A DNA stretch of 63,067 nt, the filler included, from Stramenopiles sp. TOSAG23-6 (Eukaryota), in NCBI GenBank assembly GCA_900128565.1. It is 11 parts of 11 records of this genome, joined end to end, with 100 filler letters (N's around TTAATTAATTAA, not from the genome) between each part and the next. Parts side by side here need not be neighbours in the genome. Positions count along the whole stretch, not along the records: positions 51,726 to 57,354 come from LT636866.1; 10 more parts are not named here. The stretch is one strand, 5' to 3'. A program made the position numbers and the translations under genes. Within the stretch, counting starts at the first letter, position 1. Every line of letters starts with the position of its first letter. Below are positions 5,669-59,803 of this stretch, in pieces. The notes under the pieces were generated by a model that saw only the letters and a program-made list of their open reading frames with translations, was not told where the DNA came from and made no database searches.

Positions 5669-5768
5669 NNNNNNNNNNNNNNNNNNNNNNNNNNNNNNNN
5701 NNNNNNNNNNNNTTAATTAATTAANNNNNNNNNNNNNNNNNNNNNNNNNNNNNNNNNNNNNNNNNNNN
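5669..5768. other. Artificial contig linker; also at 11426-11525, 17181-17280, 22927-23026, 28673-28772, 34418-34517, 40161-40260, 45896-45995, 51626-51725, 57355-57454
   Basis: Identical 100-nt spacers of N around TTAATTAATTAA (stops in all six frames). Confidence 0.98.
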
Positions 5769-10201: not shown

Positions 10202-11373
10202 CTAATTTGACTTGGGTTGACCTAATACTTCCAGAATAGTAGCTTGGCAAGCTTCTGCTAACCTAGTTGCTGCTTCCAACGTCGATGCCTCTGCATATAC
10301 TCTCACTACATCCTCAGTTCCACTTGGACGAACAAAAGCTCGACCTTCTTTCCCTTCAGCCGCTACTAATTCGTCAATTTTAGTTTGTAAATTAGGAGGT
10401 TGTATAACTTTGAGACCTTCCGGTGTCAAAGAATTTGAGATCGCATTACGGTCAGGGACCCGAACAGCAATTTGTTTTGAAGGAGTATTAGTGAAGAGGT
10501 CCTTCCATTCTGAAAGACCCCAACCCTCCAATGCTAAAATAGCTTCTACCATCAACATATCAGCAAGCGAATCACCAACACCTTGATTAATGAGCTTATA
10601 CGAAGAAAGTAATCGCTGAAGAGCTAAACGCTTTCTTGGGGACAATGTATTTTGGGAAAATATTTCAAAAAATTTAAAAAAATGTTAGGTACAAAATTCA
10701 CTACAAAATGTTTTTTCAAATTGAAATGATGAAAACGTACATGCATCTGGATCTTTTTCATTATTCTTTGATGACTCGATTGTGGCCTTATCACGTTTTT
10801 CCATATCACGAAGACGTTCAATGAATGTTGATTTAAATACTGCAGTACCATGGCCATTTGCTTCAAAATACACACCAATATCAAATTCTAGGGCTTTATG
10901 ATGTACTGGAAAAAATATTGTAGAAAAAAAAATGTTAGGTACGGAATTTCATACCAAAAAAAAAAACATTTTTGAAATTCATGATCAAAACGTACATGAC
11001 AATGCTTAACACCAGTTCGAGTAGTTGCAACTGTTAAACCTAAATCCTCCTTCATATATTTTGTAGAAGCCCCGTTCGCATAAGGAGTTTGAACACAACC
11101 AAATGTCATGGTGTTGGCTGTGGTATCTCCATCAGTAGATAAAAGACCTAAAACTTGACACTCACGTACGAGAAAACGGGAGAACAAAACTGTCTCTGCA
11201 TCACCATCCAATAAATGCCATTTTGAATCAGCATCGTAATAGTGATATACAATTCTATCAGCATCACCATCGATAGAAGCAATTCGTTTTCCTCGATCGT
11301 TAGAAGAAATCCCTTCTGGCGGAACACCATTTCTGTATACATGATCAGCACCACACTTAAAGTTGAGTACGCC
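10202..11373 (-). CDS. PGM3: Phosphoacetylglucosamine mutase, 3' part; exons 11373-10996, 10900-10741, 10644-10202
   Basis: [59 protein letters not shown]. Confidence 0.95.
10645..10740 (-). mobile_element. GT-AT introner intron (PGM3)
   Basis: cAT|GTACGT..TACCTAAC..caaaatacAT|tgt. Confidence 0.85.
10901..10995 (-). mobile_element. GT-AT introner intron (PGM3)
   Basis: cAT|GTACGT..TACCTAAC..ccagtacAT|cat; restores conserved KHCHHKA, the nearby AG is out of frame. Confidence 0.9.
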
Positions 11374-12512: not shown

Positions 12513-15500
12513 CTAACCTTGTACTTTAGCTGAAAAACTAAACTGAAACAAAGGGTTACCCTTTGACTGAAATACAGGCCACCATTCTTGATACATTGGT
12601 CCATCAGGTTTAAAACGTATTTTATATATTTTTGTATCTAGCATTTGTGAAATCGCGTCATAGACTTCATCATAAGTACTCTTAAACTTATGACCGAAAT
12701 TTTGTACCTCCATATCAAGTGATTGAGCTTTATCGTTGAAATGTACAATAGTTTGATGTCTTTTGTAATTATTAGGATCAGAAACAATTTTACTCATTTC
12801 ATCTTNGAAATCTTTTATTATGATTGCTTGACGAGCACTAAATTCTTCAAGCTCCCAACGAACCCAATGACATATTCGTACTCTTTCAGTATCCGAAATN
12901 CCATCAATGTTCGTATCCAAATTGATGAAATCCGGTAAATCTCTTGGTATGTCTGTACCTGGACTTTCTTGTTTGAATTTTTTCCTGAAATCACGCATTC
13001 CCTTTCGTCTTTTCTTCTTTATTTTTTTAATTCTTTTCTTGATATCCTTGGCGTTTTCTGGTGTTTCAGATATTTCTGTCATCATTTGCTCTTCTTCAAT
13101 GCGTGTCCATCTGATGGTCATTTGTATCTGATAATAATAATGTCTTTGTAGATGTGTTTTTCTCGAGATTGCATCATACATGGCATTACTTAAAAGCATC
13201 GGGGAAATTTTATTATATCTGTCTACTATTGCATTCCATTCATTTTGAAACCTAATCTCTGCCTCATTGCTGATTTCAAATGTTTGGTCACGACTAAAAA
13301 CGTAGTGAAATAAACTTTCCCAAGTTGTCATTGGTACACCAGCCAATCGGCATTTACGAACAGCCAAATCTGATGCTTCAAAGGAATACATATGGATTAA
13401 TCTTTCTTTTCGCTCCTCATCAGTCCAAGTTAAATGTCCAGGATAGTTTTGGGTAAATACTGCATAGTTCTGAAGTATATTCTGCAATAAGTCAACTTTA
13501 CGTGAAAGCAATGGACACAGTTTTGGCTGAATATTACCAATCTCATCCGGAATGTTGCCCATTTCTACATTTACAATTGTGAGTTCCTCTTCCTTACGTC
13601 GAACATCTTCCATGAACTTTTGGAAAATATGTCAATTGTTTTTCTGTAAGGTATAAAATTTCGTACGAAAAAATTATTTAGGTAAAAAATATAAGATGAA
13701 AACTTACATTAGTAAAGCAAATGGTAATTTAAGACGATCTGGTAGTTCTATATCTAAAGTTCTAGAACCAGGAAATATATCATTTTTGATTGTATCACTT
13801 TTCAATACATGTGTATCATCATAAACCTTTTCCCAATCTTGACCAATATTAAATAGATAACCAAAAGAAAGGAGCGGGATAACCAACCCAAGTATACTAT
13901 AATATATAGCAATTGGTTGCAGACTCCATCTAATTTTTGTTTTTTTCTCGGTTGGTTTATTTTTCTTGTTTTTATGATTGGTTTTAGTTTTAGTTTTAGT
14001 TTTAGTTTTGGTTTGATTTGCGGAATGCTCGTTGCCAACGTTTCCGTTTGCTTCCTCGTTTTTTTTCTTCCTTCGTCGGCGACGTCTCTTTTTAGTTTTC
14101 GACTGAGGTTTATGTTGTCCAACAAATAATTTTGTTTCAACAGGAGTTATTTTTTTCTCTTTAGGAGAAACATCAATCTCTTTTTGTTGTAGAAGTTCTT
14201 CAATTCGACTTTTATGTAGAACAGGCAGAATATCTTTAGAAGTATGCGAAATATGCTGAGAAACTTTTAATTTTTTATCATCGTGGGGTTCTTTGTTATC
14301 ATCTTGAGGTTTATTTTTATTCTCTTGAGGTTCATTAGTATGATGATCATTAGGAATAACTGCTGCTGTGCTATTTGCTTCCCCTGGACTCTTTGCTTCA
14401 TTTCTATCACCGAAACAAGGAATTTCAACCAAAGAGATACTAGAATTTTCAAAACATGGGCGAATATCACCACCACTAACAATATGTTTATATAAATCAT
14501 CAAATGACCTTTGAACTCGTAGAATATTCCGTACATTAACACTTGCATTTTTTTTCATTTTTTTCACAAAGTGGATCCTGGATAAACATTTCTCCTTGTT
14601 GATCAAATGGAGTATTTCTTTGTACCCCATCAGGGTAAAAAANACACTCAATGGGTCGCATGTGCATTTCTTTGTTTCGTCCGATATATGGACTATCACG
14701 AGAAAATGTTTTTAAAAACCTAATTAATTTTTCAACTAATGAATATCGATTTAAAATAGCACCTTGCATACTTAAAAAAAAATGTACCATTAAGATGAGA
14801 ACATAACCTGTTAAAGTTCCATCACGAGGATCGTATAATTTCGCTTTAAACAAATATCTCTTCATTAATAATACTATTTCTCTCATACCTTGATAACGCC
14901 CTAAGCTGTCTGTAACAAATTCAAGAGCACGAAGTCCCGAATGATTTGAAGTTTGTATTGAAATGTCGGCTTTTATATTTTGACCTTCCAGAATAATATG
15001 AGGAATCTCAGTACCAATAATTTCGGTTTCGTATCCAGAATCAAAAACAGTATTCAAAGTCTGCAAGTAATCGATGACTTCAGTAGAAGGAACTTCCCAT
15101 GGAAAAGATACAACAATATCAAGATCTGATATCCCATTGACGTAAAGGTTTTGAGCCACAGAGCCATACACAGTAGCCTTGACACCATTCGTGTAATATT
15201 TTACGCCGTGTTGGTCCACCAATGGCCACTGATAAATATTTTCTCCCAATTTTTCAACAAATTGTTCTTGATTCATCCGCTGCTTGTTGTCGTTATCGGC
15301 AAGAAGAATATTTTCAAGGTAGCGATTCGCCCAAACTTTATACTCAGGCTTTAATGTTGAATGGTCGAATGTAGGGGTGCTACAGTGTTTTCGTGTTGGT
15401 TTTGGTATAAATTCCTTCGAACTCTCCTTTAGATCCGATGTGGGTGAAACAGTAAGTGGAGCAAGTCCTCTCAAATGACTAGCGGCATTTACATGATCCA

Positions 15501-15537
15501 CGCAATGACATAGTAGAAACAATATAACAAGCATCAT
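12513..15537 (-). CDS. Trf4/Cid1-like nucleotidyltransferase-domain protein with signal peptide and TM helix; one intron, probable homopolymer frameshift near 14550
   Basis: YGSVAQNLYVNGISDLDIVV, KADISI, GTLTGYVLILMV, IQDPL; hydrophobic N-terminus. Confidence 0.7.
13612..13707 (-). mobile_element. GT-AT introner intron
   Basis: aAT|GTAAGT..TTCGTACGAAATTTTATACCTTAC..aagttcAT|gga; in frame LLMEDV. Confidence 0.8.
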
Positions 15538-15768
15538 TTTTCAATAGGTTGCAAGCACTGCGGCTAGTAAACGAGTGGTACATACGACGACTCGAGTCAC
15601 TCGACGAGGTGTAAAAGTTTGAGAGAGTCAGCTGCTTCGCTGGAGAGAATCACGAAATTTCGTTATTTTTGGCGCATAAGAAAAGTAGGGTTAGGGTTTG
15701 TTCTTCAGAAAATACATCAGATTATTCGTTCAATTTGTAATATTGTTTTCAATTTTATTGTATATAAA

Positions 15769-33780: not shown

Positions 33781-34529
33781 TTATTAANNNNNNNNNNNNN
33801 NNNNNNNNNNNNNNNNNNNNNNNNNNNNNNNNNNNNNNNNNNNNNNNNNNNNNNNNNNNNNNNNNNNNNNNNNNNNNNNNNNNNNNNNNNNNNNNNNNNN
33901 NNNNNNNNNNNTTGACGTCTTTATTACAATGTCATTTTTTTGTTTCTCCATTTTCAACGAACTTTCGGCTTTTTTTATCCCAAATCTATTTGTATTTTCC
34001 GTACTATAATATTTCTTCATAGGTAATGTAACTGATGTAGTTTCAGTTTTATTTGTTGTTCTTGTCGAAATAGTTTTGTTGGATCTAGATTTATCTATAT
34101 TATGTGGGGTAAATGGTGGCATCGATTGAGAACTCGATAGGCTATTCATGATCATATGTTCCGATGATTTCAACATATTTGGAGCAGTAGACGTTTTTTT
34201 TAAAGAACGAGATTCGAGCCATTTTTGTTCATTTTGTAATGATTTTGGGTTCGTTGAAAATGGAGAAACAAAAAAATGACATTGTAATAAAGACGTCAAC
34301 AATGTGGGAAATGACTCAACGCGCAATAGAATTATTATTTCATCGCTGGTACGCAAGTGTTCAACTCGATGATGAAAATATGAAAGAAATACCAGGCTTG
34401 TGCCAAACACAAATTCANNNNNNNNNNNNNNNNNNNNNNNNNNNNNNNNNNNNNNNNNNNNTTAATTAATTAANNNNNNNNNNNNNNNNNNNNNNNNNNN
34501 NNNNNNNNNNNNNNNNNTCAGAGATTAAT

Positions 34530-34690
34530 GTATGTTTTCATCATTCATTTTCATCGTTCATTTTTTTTATTAGAAATATTTGTATCACTATTTTCATGTC
34601 AATTTATTTATGTAGTTGTAACATCAAAGCCTATATTTTTTTGTTTCTAACAAAACAATTAAATTTTTAAAATATTTCCCCAAAATACAT
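34530..34690 (+). mobile_element. GT-AT intron (SWR1), diverged interior
   Basis: aAT|GTATGT..TTCTAAC..ccaaaatacAT|gga; restores QRLMDRFN. Confidence 0.85.
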
Positions 34691-37787: not shown

Positions 37788-37885
37788 ATGTACTGTGAAA
37801 AAATATTTCAAAAAAAAAAAGAAAAAGTCGTTAGGTACAAAATTCCGTACGAAAATAAAATCTGAAATGAATGATGAAAACATAC
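37788..37885 (-). mobile_element. GT-AT introner intron at the SWR1 / RFC2 junction
   Basis: aAT|GTATGT..TACCTAAC..cagtacAT|gct. Confidence 0.8.
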
Positions 37886-40160
37886 ATTAATCTCTGACGT
37901 TCTTCCACTTTCGTACTACCATCAAGTCGAACATAAGTATGTCCATGTNAATTCAGAAATATTTCTAAAACATTCAACATCTTTGTCATTTGTGTAAAAA
38001 TTAAAACTTTTGAATTTTGAGATTTCAATTTTCTCAGCAAAGGATCTAAAACTTGAAATTTACCACAGTCCCATTGAACTAAACGTTTATCCGGAAATAA
38101 AAGAGATTGGCGACGTAACCATTCATAATGAATTTCACGCCATTGGTGTAAAGCATTTTGTACAATACTATTATCTATATTTGATAATGCAGTACTTATT
38201 TCAAGAGGAACGGACCTGCCTGGTGTATCAATTTGTGGAATACTTTCTGACGGTTTTACTTTGGGAACAACTGACGTGAATTTTTGTGTTAAAATTGTAC
38301 CCATTTTCATTCTTTTTCTATAAGAATTAATCAAACCAATAGAATTATTAATAGAATCATCAACACCAAAATTTTTCCATAATAATTGATGCTTTAATAA
38401 AACATGTACACTATGACGTACATCTTTACCATATATAGGTTGTTGCTCAAGACGTAATTGATTAATACGTGAATTACGCATCCATCTATACTTCATTTCA
38501 TTGTCTTGTTTTTGTTTATACTGAAAATATGATGAGTATAATACTGAAGATTTTGGTACACCATAAAGTGTATCATTTTGATTTTGATTTTTCCACAGTG
38601 ATGATAATTTCTCTACTGTGGGACATAGCTCAAGCGCGCGAGATGAAGAAAAACTCGATTTTGATGTATTTGCTGATACATTAAAATGTATTGCTATAAG
38701 AATTTGTTTTTGTGTTTTTGAAAGATGAGAGGTTTCTGTTTCTGCAAAATGATTAGATGAACTATTGTGAATATCCATTATCAACCTAGGAAATGTCATA
38801 CATAATGGTGGAGGACAAAACGAAGACTCGATAAGTCTTTCTTCAAATAAATCTGGGTGATTACATACTTTACGCAGCTGCATCAACACACCCATCATAC
38901 TAATCACACTACCTCCTGATAGAGCAGCTCTTGTTGAACCTCTTGCCATAAAATCTTCATATAGAAATTGTTGACGTCGTGATAGCTGGCATTTAACAAC
39001 ATGTACTGTGAAAATATGTCTTAATAGTTTGGAATTCGTTAGGTATTGGATTTGAAATTATACAAATATTAAACAAATACGACACAAACAAATACTAAAA
39101 TTACTGATGAAAACATACATGTTCATATTTACCAGGTAATTCCTTTGCAACATCTTGTTTTAAACGACGTAAAAGAAAAGGACGAATAATTCCGTGTAAT
39201 CGTGAAATAACAGTTTCATTCACTGCAGTTTTACCCTCCACCATACCTGTCAATGGATTCGAAAACCAATATTTAAACTCACCACGTGAACGAAATATTG
39301 AAGGCATTAAAAAGTGCATTAAACTCCAAAGTTCCATTAAACTATTTTGTAATGGTGTTCCAGTGAGTAATAAACGTCTCTTCGTATTGAAATGTAATAA
39401 AGTTTGCCAGCGTTGAGATTGAAAATTTTTAATATTTTGTGCCTCATCGAGAATCATATAATACCATCGCTTACGACGAAAAGCATGGGCATCTTGGACA
39501 ACTAATTGATACGAAGTGATACATATATGAAAACTATTAAATTTTGACCACCCTTTTCGTTTCGTCGCACGTTGTTTTGCAGATCCATAATAAGTAATCA
39601 TATATTGTAAGAAATATGTGTACAATTTGAAAATTGTTAGATATAAAAAAAGTTTCACTTTGAATTTTTCATATGAAAATAAAATGAATAATGAAAATAA
39701 AATGAATAATGAAAACGTACACTTTAAAAGATGGACACCATTTCTTGATTTCCTGTTCCCAATTGACTATTACACTAGTTGGAACAATAATTAAATGAGG
39801 ACCCCACGCTGCTCTACTACTTGCTAAATACGCTAATAAAGTAATTGTTTGAATTGTTTTACCTAAACCCATTTCATCTGCTAAGATACCATTCAAACGA
39901 CGATCATGCATTGACACAAGCCAATCAACACCAGCACGTTGATAATTACGTAATGTTAGTTTTGGTGCAAGTAAAAATGGAACAGACACAGTGTACTTAC
40001 CAGATTTCAGATTCTCAGGAGTTTGCGTCGTTGATAACGGTTGTATTTGCTTTTCTATGGCACTATCATCATCATCTGTATATTCACAATTATCAACATC
40101 AGTATCACTATCAGACGATAAATCTCTATGTGCACCACCACCATATCGTTTTATTAATTC
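37886..40160 (-). CDS. SWR1: SWR1/SRCAP SNF2 ATPase, central exons (40160-39721, 39599-39119, 39000-37886)
   Basis: NGILADEMGLGKTIQT, ILDEAQNIKNF, LMQLRKVCNHPDLFE, DCGKFQVL, YVRLDGSTKVEERQRLM. Confidence 0.92.
39001..39118 (-). mobile_element. GT-AT introner intron (SWR1)
   Basis: cAT|GTATGT..TACCTAAC..cagtacAT|gtt; restores KYEHVVKCQLSRRQ. Confidence 0.88.
39600..39720 (-). mobile_element. GT-AT intron (SWR1)
   Basis: aGT|GTACGT..TATCTAAC..caatatAT|gat; restores FKVITYYG. Confidence 0.8.
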
Positions 40161-44864: not shown

Positions 44865-45804
44865 TGGTTATGTCTTTCAAAACGATCTGATGTATTGAAT
44901 AACACGAATTCTCTAGATATGAATCATTTGGATGAAATAAATATGACTGGAAATCCTCAATTAAATCAATTTAGTTGCAATGATAGTGAACTGGGAGGAC
45001 AAAATCATCGAGTACCAAATTTTGTACCTAACAAATTTCAAAATTTTAAAAAGAGAATTCGACCAATTTTATTCACATGTACGTTTTATTTTTTTGAAAA
45101 TTTGAATTTTTTTTTCGTAGTAAATTTTGTACCTAACAATTTTTTGATTTTTTTTCTAAAAATATTTTTCCAAAATATATGGTTTATAACTCAGATCTTT
45201 ATATTAATTGGACAAGTAGATCTTTTAGCCCCGATTGTTTCTGTTGTATTTTTGTATACTTTTCTTGTACTTAATATGACATGTTTAACATTAGAGTGGA
45301 GTAAGTCAAGAGAATCCTTTCAGCCAACATTTAGAATGTATTCATGTACGTTTTCATCTTTTTTTTTTTTTTTTTTTTTTTTTACGAAATTTCGTACCTA
45401 AAAAAAAAAAAAAAAAAAAAATATTTTGAAAAAAAAAAATATTTTTATAGTATACAGGGTTTTCATCTTTTTTTTTTTTTTCATCATTTTTTTAATAGTT
45501 AATTTCGTACCTAACAAAAAACCAAAAATATATATATTTATAGTATACAGGGTTCACTTCATTGTGTGGATCAATTTTATGTTTTGGTGCTATATTAATA
45601 TCACAACATTACATTATATCCCTTTTGATGATTGCTCTAATTGTCTCTGGGTTACTATTTAGAAAAAACAAATTAATAAACCGTTGGTCGCCAACGACGT
45701 TTTCTACTGATTCTCCTCATAATATGAAACGTTTGACCAAACAAAATTATAACATAAATGTACAACCAACAATGGATGACACAAATGTCAAAAATTCAGT
45801 TTTA
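44865..45804 (+). CDS. SLC12 cotransporter internal exons (44865-45078, 45181-45345, 45551-~45804)
   Basis: LFTWFITQIFILIGQVDLLAPIVSVVFL..LEWS..FQPTFRMYSWFTSLCG. Confidence 0.75.
45079..45180 (+). mobile_element. GT-AT introner intron (SLC12)
   Basis: cAT|GTACGT..TACCTAAC..caaaatatAT|ggt; restores FTWF. Confidence 0.85.
45346..45550 (+). mobile_element. Family intron ending in AG, appears tandemly doubled
   Basis: cAT|GTACGT..tagtatacAG twice; the second acceptor restores YSWFTSLCG. Confidence 0.65.
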
Positions 45805-46061: not shown

Positions 46062-46987
46062 ATGAGAGTTCTGCGCTGCGTAATGGATGACTGAGAAACC
46101 AGCTGGAGTGACTATGTGCAGATCAGCACCTCCAGCAACTAGTAGCTGAACAACTTGAATGTTGCCTTTGGATGTTGCCATCATGTGCTATGAAACATAT
46201 TTTGGAAATTGGATATTTGTTAGGTATGAAATTTTCGTAATAAAAATAATGTAGGTAAAGAATTAACAAAGACAACCTACATTATCGCGGTTTCACCATC
46301 TGAGTTTAATCCATTAACATCAGCATCACTTTCAGTAAGGAGTATTTCCAAGCATTCTAAGTGACTTCCATTAACATCAAGAAATGCTGCCCAGTGGAGC
46401 GCAAGACTTTTTTTATTATCTATCGCAGGAGTATTTGCACTCTCACCAGCTGCAATACAGTTTTTTAGTGCTTCAGGATCACACATTTTCACAGCAGTAA
46501 CAATTTTTGGGTCCATTTGATCAGACTGTTCACTAAGATTACCCTTACCAGCAAGTCCACCAGTACCGGCTTCCCCATTTTTACCACTTACTAGCTCACC
46601 ATCGTTTTCCTTTGGGGCACCAACGTCAGAAGAAAGTTTCTGTTTTTCCGTTTCTTCCGGTTTCAGTCCTAATCTTCTTGTTTGAGCACTACACGCGGCG
46701 CGGACACGAGCAACACGGTTTTTTTGTGGAAACGGATTTTGCGAAGGTAGTGACACCATTTGATTGCACGATGTACACATTACGAACGCAGCCTTTAAAG
46801 GTATTACAAACCGGAAGCGCGCTTCGCAGTTTGGACATACAGCAATCAAACTCGTCCGCATTTTCAGGAGACTCATAACATCAACTTTGGGTGGAAGTTC
46901 TTTATCCATAGAGGGCACTACGGTGGAAAGCTTACTATATTTGTGTCCTCCACATTCCTTTCCACCATGGCAATGCCCATGAGACAT
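46062..46987 (-). CDS. Zn-ribbon plus ankyrin-repeat protein, 3'-truncated
   Basis: CPNC..CTSC; ALHWAA, ADVNGLNSDGETAIMMA, SVIHYAA. Confidence 0.75.
46183..46280 (-). mobile_element. GT-AT introner intron
   Basis: aAT|GTAGGT..TACCTAAC..agcacAT|gat; restores ankyrin GETAIMMA. Confidence 0.85.
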
Positions 46988-51623: not shown

Positions 51624-51810
51624 GGNNNNNNNNNNNNNNNNNNNNNNNNNNNNNNNNNNNNNNNNNNNNTTAATTAATTAANNNNNNNNNNNNNNNNNNN
51701 NNNNNNNNNNNNNNNNNNNNNNNNNCAAAAAAAAAAAACTTAAATTTGTTAGGTACAAAATTTCGTACGAAAAAAAAATTTTTTTTTGTTAAAAAAAAAA
51801 TGAAACGTAC

Positions 51811-53271
51811 ATGGACCATTTGTGAAATAAAATGAAACGCATCAACACGAAATGGACATAAAATAAGAACACGAGGTCTTGTAAATCCTTGATCTCTATA
51901 TTCAACCCAACCATCATTATTATGTAAAGATTTTTGAACATTTTGAACATTTTGAACATTTTCATTTTGAACATTTTCATTTTGAACATTTTCATTTTGA
52001 ACAATTTCCGCCAGTGCTTTTTTTTGTCGACGTATCCGATGCGACTTTTTCGCAGATGATATTTTTGAATCATGTTTACTGACTAAATCACGCATTTTAA
52101 TAATATGATTTGTAATATGAAGAATCCAAAGATTTTGAATTTCTTTTGCACTGCCGGAATGCATGGTACCGGGTATCACATGTTCAGTGACGTCATTCGT
52201 ATTACATTTGTTTTGTGTACAGGGTAAAATTCCACCATTTGTATATACAATATCTTTATACATTCGTAATGAATCAGCTAAACATTCTTGCGCTGGTGTT
52301 AATTGTAAATTACATTTTGGTATTTGTGATATAATTTTTGGTTTGATCCAATTCTTTACCCATGACAAATTCATCTTTTTTTTCATCTTTTTTTTAATTA
52401 ATGATTTTGTACCTAACAATTGTATATTTGTTTGACATTCATTTTGACTAAGAATTTTGCTTCCAGATATTTGTAATTTATATTGTATTGATGAGTCTTG
52501 TAGTAGTGTTTGATGGGCAGTTTTAGATATTGGCAGTTTTTGATGTTTAATTTTGTTTTTAGATATTTTTTCACAATTTGTTACTGTTGAAAATTCATAT
52601 TTTGTAAATGGTAATGGAAAATATCCGTCCAAACTGAATGAAATTGGATGATTATAATCATCTAATAGAATATTTTGTTCCTCATCCGAATCAGAAATTT
52701 CGTCTTGTTCATTCGTACAAAGTTCCGTAGTCGTAATTGTTACCATTTGTCTTGGTTTATTTTTAGGGTTAGGGTTAGATGATTCTGTTGGAGTGTATGC
52801 CGTTTGTGTTTGTTTTGTTGTTGTTTTTGTTGTTTTTGTTGTTTTTGTTGTTGTATCAAGACTCTCCTCCATATCATCATCTTCTTCAGACATGTCAGAT
52901 ATATCATCAAAGTTCTCATTAATATTATCTTCTCCACTGTCTTGTTCAGACAGAACAGCTACGTCATCTTTTACATGAATGTCGTCTTCTTCATCTTCAG
53001 ACATGGCTGCTACATCAACACCTTCTTCTTCCAACATTCTCGATTGATATAATTTTGCATGTTTTGTCGTATGAACTGTTCTTTGAAGAGACGAAAGAAG
53101 TGTTTTATATGATGCATCGGCATCACCAATAGACTCGTCGTCGTCGGAAGAGGAGGAAGAATGGTGGACAACTGGTTCAACTACTTTTTTTGATTCTTGA
53201 CGTCTACGTTGTTTTTTCCCGCGTCTTTTTGAGCCAGAATAACGAGATGATGGACGCTTGTACCCAGGCAT
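51811..53271 (-). CDS. UTP25: U3 snoRNA-associated protein 25, first exon
   Basis: YKDIVY, LHITNHIIK, EYRDQGFTRPRVLILCPFR; donor GTACGT at 51810. Confidence 0.9.
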
Positions 53272-53556
53272 CAGATAATATACTCGTCTATATTTCAATT
53301 GAGTTAATACTATATAAGCAATTGATATAAATACGTAAAATGTACACAATCTGAATGACTTTCAGCTTGGGGTAAAAGTAAAAAAGAAAACGACTGATCT
53401 GATGCGTACCTTTTTTTTTTTCAAGTAGTAAAAAATGGTACAAATTTTTTTAGTAGACTGGCTCCAAATGGAACAAACCTGCTTTTTTCAGCCGTGAGAT
53501 CATTTCACTATTAATAGCACTACAATATGAGGACTGTAGTAGTGGTAGCAGAGCAG

Positions 53557-53557
53557 C

Positions 53558-53591
<34 letters not shown>
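53557..53591. repeat. (CAA)n microsatellite
   Basis: About 11 CAA units upstream of MOB1. Confidence 0.9.
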
Positions 53592-53764
53592 GGATCTAAA
53601 ATCGTTTTATATAATATAGCTGTTATCATTCTTGAAACGACATACTTGCTTTCTATTCTTGGATTACTATTTTACACACCTTATAGAACATTTGTTGTGT
53701 GATTGTTGGATACTTACCATCATTGTACATCTGTTGTATTGTCCCTTTTTGAATAACCAAATAA

Positions 53765-55455
53765 ATGGGACTATTTTGTTGTTTTCCATGTTGCAACGGA
53801 ACATCAGACGTTGAAAACACCGCCGCTTCATCGGGAAACTTTTATCGTCTTCATAATTCTGATCCAGATCTTAATTTATTACAAGGTCAGCCATCTGTTC
53901 AAGTCAATGAGTCGATTTCTGGAGATAGTAGGATAAGTACAGATAATAGTACGGCGCAATCTAACAAAAACAATGATGCAACTCATAATAGACATATACT
54001 TAGTACGGATTCAAAAGTAAATGAACATGATCCATTTCAAACGTCGACAAATGCGAAACATGATTCTACTCATGACACGTCAATATCATCATCAGCAACG
54101 TATAGAGACTCAAAAAAAATATCAACAACAACAACAACAAATTCTAATTCTAATCCAAAACTGTTAACTTTTTTTGGGGGTTTGCTAGGACAAACAAAAT
54201 CATCAAAATCACTTAAACCATTACATGTATATACAAAAGGTACCCGACGACTCTATTTACACAAACAATTAGTTAAAGATTTATCATCAGAAAATGTAAT
54301 TTTACGTAATGTATGTTATTCAATCATTTTCATCATGAATTTCGAATTTATATTTTTTTTAGTCTCTATACGTTGCTGATGATGATATTGACGTGTCATT
54401 CATCCATTTTCATCAATTTTGAGATTTTTAAAATTTTCAAAATCGGTAGTTGTATCAAATGTTGACTGTTGTGTTGTCCCTACTACTTTAATAATTTCTA
54501 TACTATAATTTTTGATAATTTTTAATAATTTTTAATAATTTTTGATAATTTTTAATAATTTTGAATAATTTTTTGATAATTTTTTGATAATTTTTTGATA
54601 ATTTTTAATAATTTTAAAATTTCATATATTTTTTTACAATACATGTTGTTAAATTGCCTCCTTATGAAGACTTGAATGATTGGATGGCATTGCATTTGAT
54701 TGATTTTTTCAATGAAATTTCAATGTTGTACGGTGTGCGTTTTACTTTATGAATTTCATTTTTTGTACAAAAAAATATTTTTTTTTCATACGAAATTTCG
54801 TACCTAACAAAAAACAAAAAACAAAAAAAATTTTGAAACATATTTTTTCCAATATATGTTCTTACTGATTACTGTACGCCACAAACCTGTCCAATAATGA
54901 ATGCTGGTAAAAAATATACTTTTTTATGGTGTGAAAAACATTCAAAAAAGTTCAAAAAACCAAAAAAAGTATCAGCACCATTGTACATAGATTTATTATT
55001 AAATTGGGTCCAATCAAAACTTCACACTATTGAAAATGACGTCAACCCTAACCCTAGTAGTATTGAACATGGTGAAAAAACACGATATCCTGAACATTTT
55101 CATCGTGATGCAAAACAAATATTTAAGCGATTATTTCGTGTGTATGCACATGTTTTTCATAGTCATTTTAAACAATGTGTTGTTTTAGGTATCGATACCC
55201 ATGTATGTTTTTGTATTGATATTATTTGGAAAATTTGAAATTTGGAAAATTTGAATTTTTTAAATTTTTTTTTCGTACGAAATTTTGTACCTAACAAATT
55301 TTGAATTTAAAAAAAAAAAAAAATATTTCCCCACAATAAATGTAAACAGATGTTTTACTAGATATATTTTATTTATTTTAGAATTCGGTTTAGTAGAGAA
55401 AAAAGAACTAATGCCTTTAAGTAAACTTTTGCAATTTATTCAAAAAAGTGCTTAA
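53765..55455 (+). CDS. MOB1: MOB kinase activator with N-terminal extension; exons 53765-54310, 54645-54734, 54858-55202, 55342-55455
   Basis: LRNVVKLPPYEDLNDW..DFFNEISMLYGVLTDYCT..CPIMNAG, KQIFKRLFRVYAHVFHSHF, EFGLVEKKELMPL. Confidence 0.9.
54311..54644 (+). mobile_element. Long GT-AT intron with (ATAATTTTTR)n minisatellite
   Basis: aAT|GTATGT..caatacAT|gtt; restores LRNVVKLP. Confidence 0.8.
54735..54857 (+). mobile_element. GT-AT introner intron (MOB1)
   Basis: gGT|GTGCGT..TACCTAAC..caatatAT|gtt; restores LYGVL. Confidence 0.88.
55203..55341 (+). mobile_element. GT-AT introner intron (MOB1)
   Basis: cAT|GTATGT..TACCTAAC..caataaAT|gta; restores THVNRCF. Confidence 0.88.
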
Positions 55456-55705
55456 AAAATAAAAAAATGAAAAAAAATATTTTTGAATTTATATTTATTA
55501 GCTTGAATTTAAATTTAGAAATTAGATCTCAGATCAAAAAAAATTAATTTCTTAATTTATAGTAGTTTTTTTGGTTGCGTTTTTGACCAATGAATTTCAG
55601 AATTGTGTCGTCGTCGTACTTCCTATACTTGAGGAAAGAAATGCTACTAAGTAATATCTTCGGTACACTGTAACTACGTGCAAGAGAACTGCGCATTGAA
55701 GCACA

Positions 55706-57115
55706 ATGGCACAGCTAGTGCCGAATGAACTTTATTGCCCTATAACATTGGAAATATATGACGATCCAGTTGTTACTGCTGATGGTCACACGTATGAACG
55801 AGATGCAATTCTGCGCCACTTTCGTACAAACAATACATCGCCTTTAACAAACGAAGTGTTGCCTAATAAAAATCTTGTGCCAAACCTTAGTATTAAATCA
55901 CAATGTGTTTCATTTAAAGACAAACAAGCAAGAATGAAGAGTGATGATGTTGCTAAACGTAAAAAAGAAGCTTTTAAGAGATATACTAAATCAGCTAATG
56001 CTGGTGATAGCAAATCACAAAATAAACTTGGTGATTGTTATTTTTATGGTGANGGTGTTGCTCAAGACAAAAAAGAAGCTTTCAAGTGGTTCACTAAATC
56101 TGCTAATGCTGGAAATAGTGAAGGACAATATAATGTTGGTTTTTGTTATTATAATGGTCATGGTGTTGCTCAAGACAAAAAAGAAGCTTTCAAGTGGTTT
56201 ACTAAATCAGCTAATGCTGGGTATAGTTTTGCACAAAATAGTCTTGGTAAATGCTATAAACATGGTCGTGGTGTTGCTAAAAACAAAACAAAGTCTTTCG
56301 AGTGGTTCACTAAATCGGCTAATGTTGGTTGTAGTAAAGGACAATACAATCTTGGTAAATGCTATTATAATGGTTTTGGTGTTGTTGAAGACAAAAAAGA
56401 AGCTTTCAAGTGGTTCACTAAATCTGCTAATGCTGGTAATAGAGATGCACAATGCTATCTTGGTGAATGTTATTATTATGGTGATGGTGTTGATGAAGAC
56501 ACACACGAAGCATTTAAGTGGTATACTAAAGCAGCTAATGCCGGTCATAATAAAGCACAATACAAGGTTGGGTATTCTTATTATTATGGCGATGGTGTTG
56601 CTGAAGACAAAAAAGAAGCTTTCAAGTGGTTTATGAAATCAGCTAATGCTGGGTATAGTCGAGGACAATATAATCTTGGTAATTTTTATTTAAATGGTGA
56701 TGTTGTTGCTGAAGACAAAAAAGAAGCTTTCAAGTGGTTTACTAAGTCTGCAAATGCTGGTAATTGTTATGGACAAAATAATCTTGGTAATTGTTATTAT
56801 NATGGTNATGGTNTTGNTGAAGACTATGAAGAAGCTTTCAAGTGGTTTACTAAATCGGCTAATGCAGGTTATTGTGTGGCACAATACAAGCTTGGTTGTT
56901 GCTATTATTTTGGTGATGGTGTTGATGAAGACAAAAAAGAAGCTTTAAAGTGGTTTACTAAATCGGCTAATTTAGGTTATATCAAAGCACAAAATCAACT
57001 TGGTAATTGTTATTATTATGGTAATGGTGTTGCTGTAGACGAATTTGAAGCTTTCAAGTGGTTTACTAAATCAGCTAATGCCGGTAATGAACAAGCAAAA
57101 ACCTTTCTTTGTTGA
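55706..57115 (+). CDS. U-box E3 ligase with ~10 Sel1 repeats
   Basis: LYCPITLEIYDDPVVTADGHTYERDAI..SPLTN..LVPN; 36-aa AQYxLGxCYYxGxGVxEDKKEAFKWFTKSANAG repeats. Confidence 0.92.
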   Translation: MAQLVPNELYCPITLEIYDDPVVTADGHTYERDAILRHFRTNNTSPLTNEVLPNKNLVPNLSIKSQCVSFKDKQARMKSDDVAKRKKEAFKRYTKSANAGDSKSQNKLGDCYFYGXGVAQDKKEAFKWFTKSANAGNSEGQYNVGFCYYNGHGVAQDKKEAFKWFTKSANAGYSFAQNSLGKCYKHGRGVAKNKTKSFEWFTKSANVGCSKGQYNLGKCYYNGFGVVEDKKEAFKWFTKSANAGNRDAQCYLGECYYYGDGVDEDTHEAFKWYTKAANAGHNKAQYKVGYSYYYGDGVAEDKKEAFKWFMKSANAGYSRGQYNLGNFYLNGDVVAEDKKEAFKWFTKSANAGNCYGQNNLGNCYYXGXGXXEDYEEAFKWFTKSANAGYCVAQYKLGCCYYFGDGVDEDKKEALKWFTKSANLGYIKAQNQLGNCYYYGNGVAVDEFEAFKWFTKSANAGNEQAKTFLC

Positions 57116-57536: not shown

Positions 57537-58101
57537 TGACATTGCCGGTGCGTATGCAGGTTTGTCGGGTTGGAATTCTATTGTAACTCCATTTTTATTG
57601 TGGTTATTGACAGCATCTGGGCCACTCATAACGGGTATCATATTGGCACACTGTTGTGTTATTCCGGTGTATAGTTTGAATATGGAAACAAAAAAAAACA
57701 AAAAAAATAGTAAAAAAAAGAAAAATAATTTTGACAATCCTCAAAAATCGTTAGGTACGGAATTTGTTACAAAGGAAATATATGGTTCTTTTTCTTTGAG
57801 TGCGTTTTATTCCGGTGTAACTGTCGTATTGTTTATGCGTTTTGTTGCTTCTTTTGTATATAGTATCTTATTCTTTGCTGTGCGGCACCATTTATTTATT
57901 TGGTCTGTATGTACGTTTTCATTTCAATTTCGAATTTATTTATTTTTTTGTACGAAATTTTGTACCTAACAAAAAATATTTAAAATATTTTTTTACAATA
58001 TATTTGCACCCAAATATTTATGTGATGTTGGAATGACATTTTCAACTTGTATAATTATTTGTATGAATATGATGAGTATTAATTTGTTTGTTCATCTCTA
58101 A
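57537..58101 (+). CDS. PIGG: GPI ethanolamine-phosphate transferase (PIG-G/PIG-O type), last two exons
   Basis: DIAGAYAGL..RHHLFIWSVFAPKYL. Confidence 0.75.
57911..58003 (+). mobile_element. GT-AT introner intron (PIG-G)
   Basis: tAT|GTACGT..TACCTAAC..caatatAT|ttg; restores conserved WSVFAPK. Confidence 0.9.
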
Positions 58102-58221: not shown

Positions 58222-59535
58222 TTAGGCATAATATTGAAGACTTGCCTTTTTCTTCTGTTGCACTTGAGTGACACCTTCAACAAAATCTTCATGGCCAATA
58301 CTGTCTGCATCTCTTCTGAGGGCAAGCATACCAGCTTCAACACATACAGCTTTGAGCTGAGCACCGTTGAAGTCATCCGTCATTCTCGCAAGTTCTTCAA
58401 AGTTGACATCTTCTTTATTTACAGCCATTTTTCGACTATGAATCTCTAGAATTCGTGCGCGGGCGCTCTCCACAGGATGAGGAAGCTCAATTTTTCTGTC
58501 TAATCGACCAGAACGCAATAACGCTGGATCAAGAACATCTGGTCTATTGGTTGCTGCGATTACTTTAATTTTTGTATTCGAATCAAAACCATCCAATTGA
58601 TTCAGCAGCTCAAGCATGGTTCGTTGCACTTCACGATCTCCGGACTGATCACTATCAAAGCGTTTCGTTCCAATAGCATCAATCTCATCAATGAAAATAA
58701 TAGCACCACCCCTGTTATCAGAAGTAACCTTTTCCTTTGCGAGATCAAAAGCGTCACGCACAAGCTTCGCACCATCACCGATAAACATCTGTACAAGCTG
58801 AGGTCCTGCTAATTTTAAAAACAGAGCATCAGTGTGTTTCGCGCAAGCCCTGGCCATGAGTGTTTTTCCAGTTCCTGGTGGACCATACATTAATACGCCT
58901 TTAGGAGGTAATATGCCAATTGCATCGAATTGGTCGATAGCTGTCATAGGTAAGACGACAGACTCCAAAAGTTCCTGGATCTGTTTGTCAAGTCCGCCAA
59001 TATCGCTGAATTCTTCAGTAGGACGTTCGTCAACTTCCATAGCTTTTACTCTTGAATCATATTCAACTGGAAGCTTCTCAAGAATCAAATAACTATCCTT
59101 ATTTGTACCTACAAGATCGCTTGGTTTAAGCTCGGTATCTGATACAAGACCAATTACTGGCAAAAAGACCGTCTGTCGTGTTGACGTTTTGATTACGGCA
59201 CTTTTTGTTGCCCTCTGTGCGTCTTTGTCTATGGTGGACTCATCAGCCCCATCTTCACTTGGAAGTTGCATTATTTCAACTATATTCGCAACCAAGTAAG
59301 GTAACTGCTTGTTAAGTTTCACTTTCTCAAGGTTCTCTTTAATCTTCTCTTTCTGTGTGCGCATCTGATGCTTCAAAGTCGCTGCTGATGACCTCATGAC
59401 AGAGATATCATTCTCAATTAAAGTAGCTCTCGTTTTCAAATCATCATCCGTCATTGCTTCGATTTCAGGATCTACAGGCATATCACCCCATACAGAACTA
59501 TCATCTAGCTCAGCAACCAACTCATTAGACGCCAT
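58222..59535 (-). CDS. PSMC3: 26S proteasome AAA-ATPase subunit 6A (Rpt5)
   Basis: [48 protein letters not shown]-terminal YYA; intronless. Confidence 0.97.
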
Positions 59536-59803
59536 TATGAGTGTGATAATAATATCAGCACTCTTTTTTTTTTACGACACCGAGGAGAGTCTTTTGTACG
59601 CCCTTTTGCTTTTCTTTTCTTTCGCGTTGACATCATTTTTATTTGCAAATTTTTCGATTTCGTGTACTAGCCTAATAGATAGTGAAACTGTCGGTTGAAA
59701 ATTGAAATGCTTGCTTTCTACTACGCTGCTATCCTTGGCATTTTAGTGAAACTTCAATAATATAAGCTCCAATGAGAATGTTAGAATTTGAATAGATCTA
59801 ACA

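What the first reader, a model, noticed from the sequence alone, without database searches (positions are those of the whole stretch)
54735..54857. MOB1 intron fixes the register as GT-AT rather than AT-AC
Because of the AT repeat, most introns could also be read shifted by 2 nt as AT..AC (U12-like). Here the exon ends GGT and the intron ends AT. GT..AT yields the conserved MOB1 LYG, while the shifted register gives LYD. In four other mismatched cases (20688, 32536, 39600, 49197) the upstream copy differs (AC, CT, GT, GT) while the intronic copy stays AT; the SLC12 intron at 45346 is the reverse (exon AT, acceptor AG). The bases before the terminal AT also vary (ac, gt, gc, at, aa, tc), so AC is not invariant. 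Inference: the terminal AT is the selected acceptor.
Basis: partly seen in the sequence, partly recalled or inferred. Interest (0 to 1): 0.8.

Follow-up and report, generated by a model that had tools for sequence, protein, structure and literature searches.

The report
MOB1 intron ending in AT
A short intron in a MOB1 gene of an uncultured marine protist starts with the usual GT but ends with AT instead of AG, like nearly every other intron in this stretch of DNA, which suggests a splicing machinery with an unusual end signal.

Summary
54735-54857 is a 123-nt intron between two MOB1 exons. The exon ends GGT, and the intron starts GTGCGT and ends ATATAT. Removing it joins Pfam Mob1 positions 41 and 42/43. 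The joined codon reads Gly, which 128 of 158 MOB relatives carry; 3 of 158 carry Asp.

AT..AC is excluded here, because the register shifted by 2 is itself GT..AT. Family-wide, the shifted register gives AT-AC in only 18 of 37 complete introns, against GT-AT in 32 of 37. But the junction does not fix GT-AT. TGT stands at both ends, so four registers give the same mRNA. Exon base -1 is T in all but one AT-ended copy, so cDNA cannot separate GT..AT from TG..CA/TA at those.

GT-AT is still the best reading, for four reasons:
- The donor is GTAYGT.
- There is a TACCTAAC branch-like box.
- Two family copies carry AG exactly where the others carry AT.
- A CAG 5 nt upstream of the AT end is skipped in introns whose exons abut residue-for-residue on solved homologues.

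No transcript evidence was obtained. All 37 introns belong to one introner-like family in a stramenopile-like genome.

The parts
53765..54310 (+). MOB1 exon 1. ATG at 53765 follows a TAA. Reads MGLFCC... to ...SSENVILRN.
   Evidence: open frame; exon ends ..CGT AAT before GTATGT
54311..54644 (+). MOB1 intron 1 (334 nt), same family: AT|GTATGTTA ... CAATACAT|GT. The interior holds an inverted copy of exon 1 and a 10-nt tandem array.
   Evidence: DNA metagenome contigs skip 54366-54625 (table 5)
54645..54734 (+). MOB1 exon 2: VVKLPPYEDLNDWMALHLIDFFNEISMLYG
   Evidence: Pfam PF03637 positions 12-41; solved MOB1 chains end ..NMLYG
54735..54857 (+). The intron of the finding (123 nt), best read as GT..AT
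   Evidence: removing it joins Pfam positions 41 and 42/43
54735..54743 (+). Donor block GTGCGTTTT (family consensus GTAYGTTTT)
   Evidence: +1 G 32/33, +2 T 32/33, +3 A 31/33, +5 G 32/33, +6 T 33/33
54789..54808 (+). Family core TACGAAATTTCGTACCTAAC. It ends in the branch-like box TACCTAAC, 51 nt before the intron end.
   Evidence: 0 mismatches here; 31 matches in the window against 0.01 expected; distance
54840..54857 (+). 3' block ATATTTTTTCCAATATAT with terminal AT at 54856-54857
   Evidence: -1 T 33/33, -2 A 32/33, -3 C 22 / T 9 / A 2 of 33
54734..54736 (+). TGT, left copy of the 3-nt direct repeat that makes the cut ambiguous
   Evidence: kl 1 and kr 2
54857..54859 (+). TGT, right copy of the direct repeat
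54858..55202 (+). MOB1 exon 3 (115 aa)
   Evidence: Pfam PF03637 positions 43-144, E 4.9e-30
55203..55341 (+). MOB1 intron 3 (139 nt): AT|GTATGT ... AATAAAT|GTA
55342..55455 (+). MOB1 exon 4 with stop codon
   Evidence: Pfam positions 145-170

Best explanation
54735-54857 is a real intron of a MOB1 gene. It is one copy of a single introner-like intron family that supplies all 37 complete introns I could find in this window. The family has four conserved blocks:
- a yeast-like U2-type donor (GTAYGTTTT);
- a conserved core ending in a branch-like box (TTTTGTACCTAAC), 34-54 nt from the intron end in most copies;
- a T run;
- a 3' block ending YAT where ordinary introns have YAG.

The most likely mechanism is inferred, not shown. 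A major-type spliceosome pairs with GTAYGT and the branch box, then cuts after a context-defined AT, passing over earlier YAT and even a nearby CAG.

The MOB1 copy rules out AT-AC. Its exact cut is taken as GT|..AT| by homology with the rest of the family. The flanking AT on the exon side is either half of a 2-nt target duplication or a preferred insertion site.
For: - Precise removal restores the frame. 31 of 32 copies give an open frame across the junction, and the 32nd has N upstream. Lengths are spread over all three residues mod 3.
- Five junctions match profile or solved-structure numbering exactly. MOB1 joins Pfam 41|42-43. The SRCAP-like gene joins 695|696 and 855|856, and SWR1 773|774 and 947|948. 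The AGM1-like gene joins 374|375 in 2dka and 367|368 in 4bju.
- Register 0 gives GT-AT 32, GT-AG 2, GC-AT 1, AT-AT 1, GT-TT 1 of 37. Register -2 gives AT-AC in only 18 of 37, spread over 12 classes.
- Two family copies carry AG exactly where the others carry AT: 6037-5937 (AG|GT..AG|GT) and 45346-45550.
- 15 of 16 AG dinucleotides between the branch box and the AT end close the frame if used. This includes CAG 5 nt upstream in 10995 and 39118.
- No copy has a U12-type donor or branch box: 0 of 37.
- MOB1 junction residue: G 128 and D 3 of 158.
- AGM1 junction: the first residue of the downstream exon, His, matches His in 3 of 3 solved sequences, and register +1 would make it Asp.
- All tested copies lie in the sense of the gene.
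- Family relatedness: median pairwise identity is 0.71 against 0.61 for shuffled copies, with a top pair at 0.93 between unrelated genes. The core has 31 matches against 0.01 expected.
Against: - No transcript was seen joining the exons. The one RNA-library contig at this junction (run X6, 54836-55027) still carries 22 nt of the intron.
- Registers 0 and -1 give identical mRNA in every AT-ended copy except 20782, and there the two codons are synonymous (CAC/CAT). So no sequence comparison here separates GT..AT from TG..CA/TA.
- Asp does occur at the MOB1 column in 3 of 158 relatives.
- Val versus Met in the SRCAP-like gene is a conservative difference.
- A G at the first base paired with a U at the last has no known counterpart in the spliceosome's second step (recalled, not tested).
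- No snRNA was found in the window and no genome is held, so the machinery is unseen.
- The only independent DNA evidence for G at 54733 is the lack of a listed difference. That is not proof.
Confidence: 0.68

Rival explanations
1. The cut lies one base to the left (TG..CA or TG..TA) or, in this intron, one or two bases to the right (TG..TG, GC..GT). The mRNA is the same, so GT-AT is only one of several chemically possible registers.
For: - TGT is repeated at both ends of the MOB1 intron.
- Exon base -1 is T in 32 of 33 copies, as invariant as intron base -1, which is T in 33 of 33.
- Register -1 gives TG at the start in 34 of 37 copies.
Against: - Register -1 ends in CA 25, TA 9, AA 2, CT 1 of 37, which is less uniform than AT.
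- It turns the AG|GT..AG copy into GG..CA.
- In 45346 it changes the codon TGG to GGG.
- Register +1 would replace a His shared by 3 of 3 solved AGM1 sequences.
- It makes the last intron base variable: G 19, A 9, C 5, T 3, and one copy where it is T of the repeat.
- GTAYGT is the textbook U2-type donor (established knowledge).
Confidence: 0.14
2. Most family members are AT-AC introns (the register shifted by 2), U12-like or U2-type AT-AC. The MOB1 copy is an odd member that yields LYD.
For: - 29 of 37 copies have AT on both sides, so they can be read AT..NN.
- A at the first base with C at the last is a known compatible pair (recalled).
- Asp occurs in 3 of 158 MOB relatives.
Against: - Only 18 of 37 would be AT-AC.
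- No copy has [AG]TATCC or TCCTTRAY: 0 of 37.
- The branch-like box lies 34-54 nt from the end in most copies. A distance of about 10-20 nt is typical of U12 introns (recalled).
- MOB1 gives Gly against Asp, 128 to 3.
- The SRCAP-like junction would read Met where three solved homologues have Ile, Val and Val.
- The 45346 copy would lose the TGG codon.
Confidence: 0.05
3. The elements are removed by something other than the spliceosome. One option is an RNA-structure-guided route like euglenid nonconventional introns. The other is excision from DNA, like ciliate eliminated sequences bounded by a short direct repeat.
For: - Short direct repeats flank the element: 31 of 37 concordant pairs, including TT/TT and AG/AG.
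- The consensus ends are inverted repeats, GTAT..ATAC (19-21 of 25 copies paired at the first three positions).
- No spliced transcript was seen.
Against: - RNAalifold finds no consensus structure.
- The terminal helix and the core hairpin show no covariation: 489 of 500 shuffles reach the observed score, and paired cells are 77.8% against 78.4% shuffled.
- The donor and the branch box are conserved and orientation-specific, and all tested copies lie in the sense of the gene. DNA excision would not require that.
Confidence: 0.08
4. The shared sequence is only this organism's strict genome-wide splicing signal, not descent from a mobile element. This bears on origin, not on the register.
For: - Conservation is blocky: donor, core and 3' block.
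- No transposase, no empty site and no insertion polymorphism was seen.
Against: - Full-length identity reaches 0.93 between introns of unrelated genes, and 42 of 465 pairs are at 0.80 or more. The shuffled maximum is 0.725.
- Spacer segments such as AATTTCGAA are shared too.
- Six of ten contig ends fall inside a copy.
- The core has very high depth in seawater DNA runs.
Confidence: 0.25

Closest known systems
Non-canonical introns of the tunicates Fritillaria borealis and F. pellucida (bioRxiv 10.1101/2025.08.15.670264; abstract, introduction and first results section read)
   Same: - Most introns break the GT/AG rule.
- They derive from non-autonomous transposons ('introners').
- 3'AT is the most frequent acceptor (44% and 34%), preceded by a regular pyrimidine tract.
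- They are removed by a U2-type spliceosome with no U12 system.
   Different: - In Fritillaria the donors are diverse too (AG/AC and AG/AT are the commonest classes) and canonical introns are about 5%.
- Here the donor is a strict GTAYGT and one class, GT-AT, makes up 32 of 37.
- The host here is stramenopile-like, not an animal.
- Transcripts and snRNAs were studied there, none here.
Introners of marine algae such as Aureococcus and Micromonas (as cited in PMC7789003 and PMC12130899; passages only)
   Same: A multi-copy, near-identical intron family in unrelated genes of a marine protist. It has short direct repeats and inverted ends, and it sits in the sense orientation. Aureococcus is also a stramenopile.
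   Different: Those are described as having canonical splicing motifs. The PNAS survey lists only AG and AC as accepted 3' sites, and it discarded unfamiliar families without transcript support. An AT-ended family would therefore not have been kept.
Amoebophrya introner elements, and hemistasiid or euglenid nonconventional introns (PMC7789003 passages; PMC12621601 introduction and first results section)
   Same: Many non-GT/AG introns with direct repeats across the borders.
   Different: Those have no conserved terminal dinucleotides and rely on 8-20 nt inverted repeats or extensive end pairing. Here the termini are uniform, no consensus structure is predicted and there is no covariation.
U12-type and U2-type AT-AC introns
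   Same: The shifted reading of 18 of 37 copies begins AT and ends AC.
   Different: No U12 donor or branch box is present (0 of 37) and the branch-like box is far from the 3' end. The MOB1 copy has no AT-AC reading.
Strict U2-type introns of budding yeast (GTATGT, TACTAAC; recalled)
   Same: Donor GTAYGT and the branch-like box TACCTAAC closely resemble the yeast signals.
   Different: Yeast introns end in YAG and are few. These end in YAT, are dense (37 complete copies in about 60 kb) and share sequence throughout.

Membership tests
U2-type (major) spliceosomal intron | GT (rarely GC) donor with a consensus able to pair with U1/U6 | tested here: met
   GT 35, GC 1, AT 1 of 37. GTAYGT: +3 A 31/33, +5 G 32/33, +6 T 33/33. 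The MOB1 copy reads GTGCGT. The snRNAs themselves were not seen.
U2-type (major) spliceosomal intron | Branch-point motif with an adenosine upstream of the 3' end, followed by a pyrimidine tract | tested here: met
   A CCT[AT]A box occurs in 32 of 37 copies, 34-54 nt from the end in 29 of those 32, and T runs follow. The branch itself is not mapped.
U2-type (major) spliceosomal intron | AG as the last two bases | tested here: not met
   AG in 2 of 37, AT in 34, TT in 1. The MOB1 intron has no AG anywhere between the branch box and its end.
U12-type (minor) intron | Donor [AG]TATCCTT | tested here: not met
   0 of 37 in either register
U12-type (minor) intron | Branch box TCCTTRAY close to the 3' end | tested here: not met
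   0 of 37 within the last 40 nt
U12-type (minor) intron | U11, U12, U4atac and U6atac snRNA genes in the genome | not testable with these tools
   No genome is held. Rfam found nothing in the window.
Introner (transposon-derived intron family) | Many near-identical introns in unrelated genes | tested here: met
   37 complete copies plus partial ones. Median identity is 0.71 against 0.61 shuffled, with a maximum of 0.93.
Introner (transposon-derived intron family) | Target-site duplication and terminal inverted repeats | tested here: inconclusive
   The 2-nt flanks agree in 31 of 37 copies, including TT/TT and AG/AG. Consensus ends are GTAT..ATAC. But the MOB1 target has no AT, so the flank could be an insertion preference instead.
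Introner (transposon-derived intron family) | Evidence of mobility: empty sites, polymorphism, or an autonomous partner | tested here: inconclusive
   No contig in two seawater DNA runs skips a whole copy in the 5 kb laid. No transposase was looked for beyond the Pfam scan of ten ORFs.
Euglenid-type nonconventional intron | No conserved termini; ends brought together by stable base pairing | tested here: not met
   The termini are uniform. RNAalifold predicts 0 pairs. There is no covariation.

The most novel reading that the evidence does not exclude
A marine stramenopile has replaced the universal AG acceptor by AT across essentially its whole intron complement. One mobile intron family (GTAYGT ... 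TACCTAAC ... YAT) has colonised its genes, and a major-type spliceosome has been retuned to cut after a context-defined AT while ignoring a CAG five bases upstream. That would be a second, independent case, beside the Fritillaria tunicates, of a genome-wide shift in 3' splice-site identity. It would be the first case with a single, uniform GT-AT class.
Probability: 0.5. Interest if true: 0.85.

Novelty: new variant of a known kind. Interest (0 to 1): 0.66.

Why it matters
The AG at the end of introns is among the most constant signals in eukaryotic gene expression. How far the spliceosome can depart from it is an open question. A genome where a canonical donor is paired with an AT acceptor in nearly every intron would be a clean natural experiment on 3' splice-site recognition. 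That covers U2AF1 specificity and the pairing of the first and last intron bases in the second catalytic step. It would also bear on how mobile introns impose their own ends on a host.

There is a practical side as well. Gene finders that assume GT-AG will mis-annotate such genomes, and introner surveys that accept only AG or AC acceptors will miss such families.

The narrow point of this finding matters because it decides which machinery to look for. If the register were AT-AC, the family would be a minor-spliceosome expansion. With GT-AT it is something not yet described in protists, in the papers I could search.

Tried and rejected
- **Transcript evidence.** One search for runs found two seawater RNA runs holding 7% of the sampled words, and two DNA runs. 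The second, over 51726-56800, gave no contig that joins 54734 to 58. Only 15 of 47 joints were listed, and all of those came from the repeated core. The RNA contig at 54836-55027 keeps 22 nt of intron. This neither supports nor contradicts splicing.
- **Whole genome.** None is held. So I could not look for snRNAs, U2AF genes, more copies or copies outside genes.
- **Rfam on the window.** 0 hits.
- **More copies elsewhere.** The exact 20-mer has 0 hits in JGI metagenome contigs. A 17-mer gave 6 viral contigs. Only L001 had a weak model match, and that lies in ordinary coding sequence without intron features, so it is chance.
- **A spliced MOB1 protein of this organism.** The best relative is 46% identical, so no cDNA-derived copy was found.
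- **SLC12 junction Trp.** No homologue was fetched. The downstream exon alone has no solved match, and the upstream exon aligns to KCC3 only up to ..FRYY. The Trp argument therefore rests on recall and is not used as evidence.
- **RNA structure joining the ends.** No consensus structure and no covariation.
- **Diplonemid origin.** I considered it because the literature predicts non-canonical introns in single-cell genomes of marine diplonemids (PMC12621601, PMC10161547). I rejected it because the best named relatives of the proteasome ATPase are oomycetes and ochrophytes at 70-75% identity.
- **Prior reports.** Five literature searches succeeded and one failed on syntax. Term searches inside two papers on single-cell genomes of uncultured stramenopiles (PMC5778133, PMC3998028; passages only) found no description of GT-AT introns in protists.
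- **Earlier notes of this scan.** Nothing on this genome or on look-alike sequence.
Full report
**What the window is.** It is AT-rich eukaryotic DNA (27-41% G+C in 2-kb steps). It consists of eleven pieces: nine full contigs of about 5.73-5.76 kb in descending length, plus a cut piece at each end. The pieces are joined by ten N44-TTAATTAATTAA-N44 linkers, so neighbours across a linker are not physically linked. No genome is held for it. The best named relatives of an intron-free proteasome ATPase (58222-59571, minus strand) are oomycetes and ochrophyte algae at 70-75% identity, and an unnamed protein is 87% identical. The organism is therefore stramenopile-like. Near-identical DNA occurs in runs labelled 'organism A' and in seawater metagenomes.

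**The observation.** The exon ends ..TTG TAC GGT at 54734. A 123-nt stretch, 54735-54857, begins GTGCGTTTT and ends ..CCAATATAT. Coding sequence resumes with GTT CTT ACT.

The gene is MOB1. Its four exons are 53765-54310, 54645-54734, 54858-55202 and 55342-55455. The last three match Pfam Mob1/phocein positions 12-41, 43-144 (from the second residue of the exon) and 145-170. Removing exactly 123 nt therefore loses and gains no residue. Solved MOB1 chains read ..NQINMLYG at the exon end.

I aligned 158 MOB relatives: 8 and the best 150 of 6353. At the junction column they have G 128, S 13, A 8, D 3, N 2, E 2, M 1, K 1. Gly is the usual residue, and Asp is rare but not unknown.

**The family.** The 20-nt core of this intron, TACGAAATTTCGTACCTAAC, has 31 matches in the window at up to 3 mismatches, against 0.01 expected. 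A profile built from clear copies finds about 45 full or partial copies. I could delimit 37 complete ones.

They share these blocks:
- GTAYGTTTT at the start;
- a semi-conserved AATTTCGAA;
- the core ending in TTTTGTACCTAAC;
- a T run;
- GAAATATTTTT;
- [CA]A[CA]AAT[AG]YAT at the end.

Removing each unit restores an open frame in 31 of the 32 copies tested. The remaining one has N upstream, and its readable part is open. Lengths fall in all three classes mod 3 (13, 9 and 11 of the 33 copies). Every copy tested lies in the sense of its gene.

Median pairwise identity over the full length is 0.71, against 0.61 for shuffled copies (shuffled maximum 0.725). 42 of 465 pairs are at 0.80 or more, and the best pair is 0.93 between introns of unrelated genes on different contigs. 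Six of the ten linkers abut a truncated copy. The core has very high summed depth in two seawater DNA runs and in one RNA-library run.

I saw no intron that is not a member. The two apparent frame breaks I checked are an N before a T run and an intergenic gap.

**The register: what this intron shows.** For this intron the shifted register (54733-54855) is also GT..AT, because the upstream copy is GT and the bases before the terminal AT are AT. So this intron cannot be AT-AC under either reading. This is a firmer statement than the Gly/Asp argument.

But the junction does not fix GT-AT. TGT stands at 54734-54736 and again at 54857-54859. Cuts at TG..TA, GT..AT, TG..TG and GC..GT therefore all give TACGGTGTTCTT.

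**The register: what the family shows.**
- Register 0 gives GT-AT 32, GT-AG 2, GC-AT 1, AT-AT 1, GT-TT 1 of 37.
- Register -2 gives AT-AC in only 18 of 37, spread over 12 classes.
- Register +1 makes the last base variable.
- Register -1 gives TG at the start in 34 of 37, and ends in CA 25, TA 9, AA 2, CT 1.

Protein evidence narrows this further:
- In the SRCAP-like gene, the exon read one base into the intron ends ..WCPSFKV. It aligns to SRCAP ..FKI695, SWR1 ..FKV773 and a SMARCAD1-like ..LKV392. The next exon starts at 696 and 774. The shifted register would give Met.
- In the AGM1-like gene, the upstream exon ends at residue 374 of 2dka (367 of 4bju). The downstream exon starts at 375 (368) with a His shared by 3 of 3 solved sequences. 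Register +1 would give Asp.

Registers at or below -2 and at or above +1 are thus disfavoured for AT-ended copies.

Registers 0 and -1 cannot be separated by any mRNA or protein comparison. Exon base -1 is T in 32 of the 33 copies profiled, and by the table it is T in every AT-ended copy but 20782. At 20782 the two readings are synonymous (CAC or CAT).

I prefer register 0 for three reasons:
- GTAYGT is the textbook U2-type donor.
- Its exceptions are the known kinds (GC, and A at +1).
- The two copies that end in AG (6037-5937 and 45346-45550) carry AG exactly where the others carry AT, which makes them ordinary GT-AG introns in that register only.

**Is AT really used?** This is the stronger result. 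Between the branch-like box and the AT end there are 16 AG dinucleotides in 13 introns. Using any of them would close the frame in 15 of 16 cases.

Introns 10995-10901 and 39118-39001 end ..CCAGTACAT and ..CACAGTACAT. A canonical CAG lies 5 nt before the end. Yet the exons abut residue-for-residue on solved homologues only if the cut follows AT: AGM1 374|375, SRCAP 855|856, SWR1 947|948.

Earlier YAT triplets are also passed over in 28 of 32 introns. The end is therefore defined by context, not by the first YAT. Position -3 is C or T in 31 of 33 copies, so the end reads YAT where other eukaryotes have YAG.

**'Selected acceptor'.** Five pairs changed on the exon side only, one on the intron side only (to AG), and two changed alike on both sides (TT/TT and AG/AG). 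A two-sided sign test on 5 against 1 gives 0.22 (my arithmetic).

The two concordant variants argue that the flanking dinucleotide is coupled. That fits a 2-nt target duplication. Against a simple AT duplication, the MOB1 target (TAC GGT GTT) holds no AT. I leave duplication versus insertion preference open.

The only TT-ended copy (6847-6754) has an in-frame TAG 30 nt upstream. It may in fact be a GT-AG intron.

**Mechanism.** What is shown: precise removal is needed for the reading frames, and the copies have uniform termini, a fixed orientation, and conserved donor and branch-like boxes. What is inferred: removal by a major-type spliceosome.

It is not U12-type. No copy has [AG]TATCC or TCCTTRAY (0 of 37), and the branch-like box lies 34-54 nt from the end in most copies.

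It is not the euglenid kind. RNAalifold predicts no consensus pairs. The consensus inverted ends (GTAT..ATAC) and the core hairpin show no covariation: 77.8% of cells are paired against 78.4% in shuffles, and 489 of 500 shuffles reach the observed covariation score.

DNA-level excision is unlikely given the strict sense orientation.

**Transcripts.** I could not get junction evidence. The contigs of two seawater RNA runs and two DNA runs, laid on 51726-56800, show no joint at this intron among the 15 of 47 joints listed. One RNA-library contig (54836-55027) keeps 22 nt of the intron.

**Comparison with what is known.** The nearest case is Fritillaria, where introner-derived introns mostly break the GT/AG rule and 3'AT is the commonest acceptor (bioRxiv 10.1101/2025.08.15.670264; sections read). 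There the donors are diverse too.

Introners of marine algae, including the stramenopile Aureococcus, are described as having canonical motifs (PMC7789003, passages). A recent survey lists only AG and AC as accepted 3' sites (PMC12130899, passages).

Amoebophrya and hemistasiid diplonemids have non-canonical introns without conserved termini, and with end pairing (PMC7789003; PMC12621601, sections read).

I found no report of a uniform GT-AT class in a protist. This rests on the searches, and on term searches inside PMC5778133 and PMC3998028. Supplements were not available.

**Verdict.**
- It overstates what this one junction fixes, and it overstates the statistical weight of the asymmetry.

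The thing itself is a new variant of a known kind (introner-derived non-canonical introns). It deserves transcript and lariat data.

Noticed in passing
window, linkers starting at 5669, 11426, 17181, 22927, 28673, 34418, 40161, 45896, 51626 and 57355: The window is a chain of about 5.7-kb contigs in descending length, joined by N44-TTAATTAATTAA-N44. Six of the ten linkers abut a truncated family intron, so the assembly breaks at the repeated intron.
   Followed up: partly
34518-34550 (+) and 37865-37897 (-): The same exon end and intron start (..tcagagattaat|GTATGTTTTCATCATTCATTT) occur twice on one contig in opposite orientation. The SNF2 helicase C-domain continues after the 34530-34690 intron, not after 37885-37788. 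The contig looks like an inverted chimera joined inside an intron copy.
   Followed up: partly
54311-54644: MOB1 intron 1 (334 nt) holds a 47-nt, 98% inverted copy of exon 1 (54072-54118 against 54353-54399) and a 10-nt tandem array (54499-54628). Contigs of two seawater DNA runs skip 54366-54625. The interior is either an assembly artefact or a polymorphic insertion.
   Followed up: partly
10901-10995, 39001-39118, 37788-37885, 46183-46280, 13612-13707 (all minus strand): An AG (CAG, TAG or AAG) lies 5 nt before the AT end in five introns. Using it closes the frame in each case.
   Followed up: yes
6754-6847 (-): This is the only copy ending TT, and its exon also ends TT. It has an in-frame TAG 30 nt upstream, so it may be spliced as an ordinary GT-AG intron that leaves ten extra codons.
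   Followed up: partly
5937-6037 (-): A family copy with canonical ends and a canonical exon context: ACAG|GTATAT ... GTACAG|GT.
   Followed up: partly
6443-6541 (-): A family copy that begins ATACGT (A at the first base) and still ends AT.
   Followed up: no
45346-45550 (+): The SLC12-like intron ends AG and contains a tandem duplication of its own second half. A first ..ATACAG ends at 45457 and is followed by GGTTTTCATC.
   Followed up: partly
57690-57810: A partial family core lies in antisense (57722-57777) inside a frame that stays open on the plus strand. The direct repeat TTATTCCGGTGTA stands on both sides.
   Followed up: no
44992-45063 (+): A core fragment (TACCAAATTTTGTACCTAAC) lies inside the open frame just upstream of the 45079 intron and reads ..VPNFVPNKF... 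It is either exonised or an unrecognised degenerate intron.
   Followed up: no
55265-55302: The intron core has summed contig depths of about 52,000 and 19,000 in two seawater DNA runs, and about 10,000 in an RNA-library run. Many contigs branch there.
   Followed up: no
55228 and 55237: Seawater DNA contigs carry a 19-nt and a 2-nt insertion in MOB1 intron 3. This is length variation of the same intron in wild relatives.
   Followed up: no
14643: A single N before a T run coincides with a frame shift between two overlapping ORFs (13704-14711 and 14536-15540). It looks like a homopolymer length error, not an intron.
   Followed up: partly
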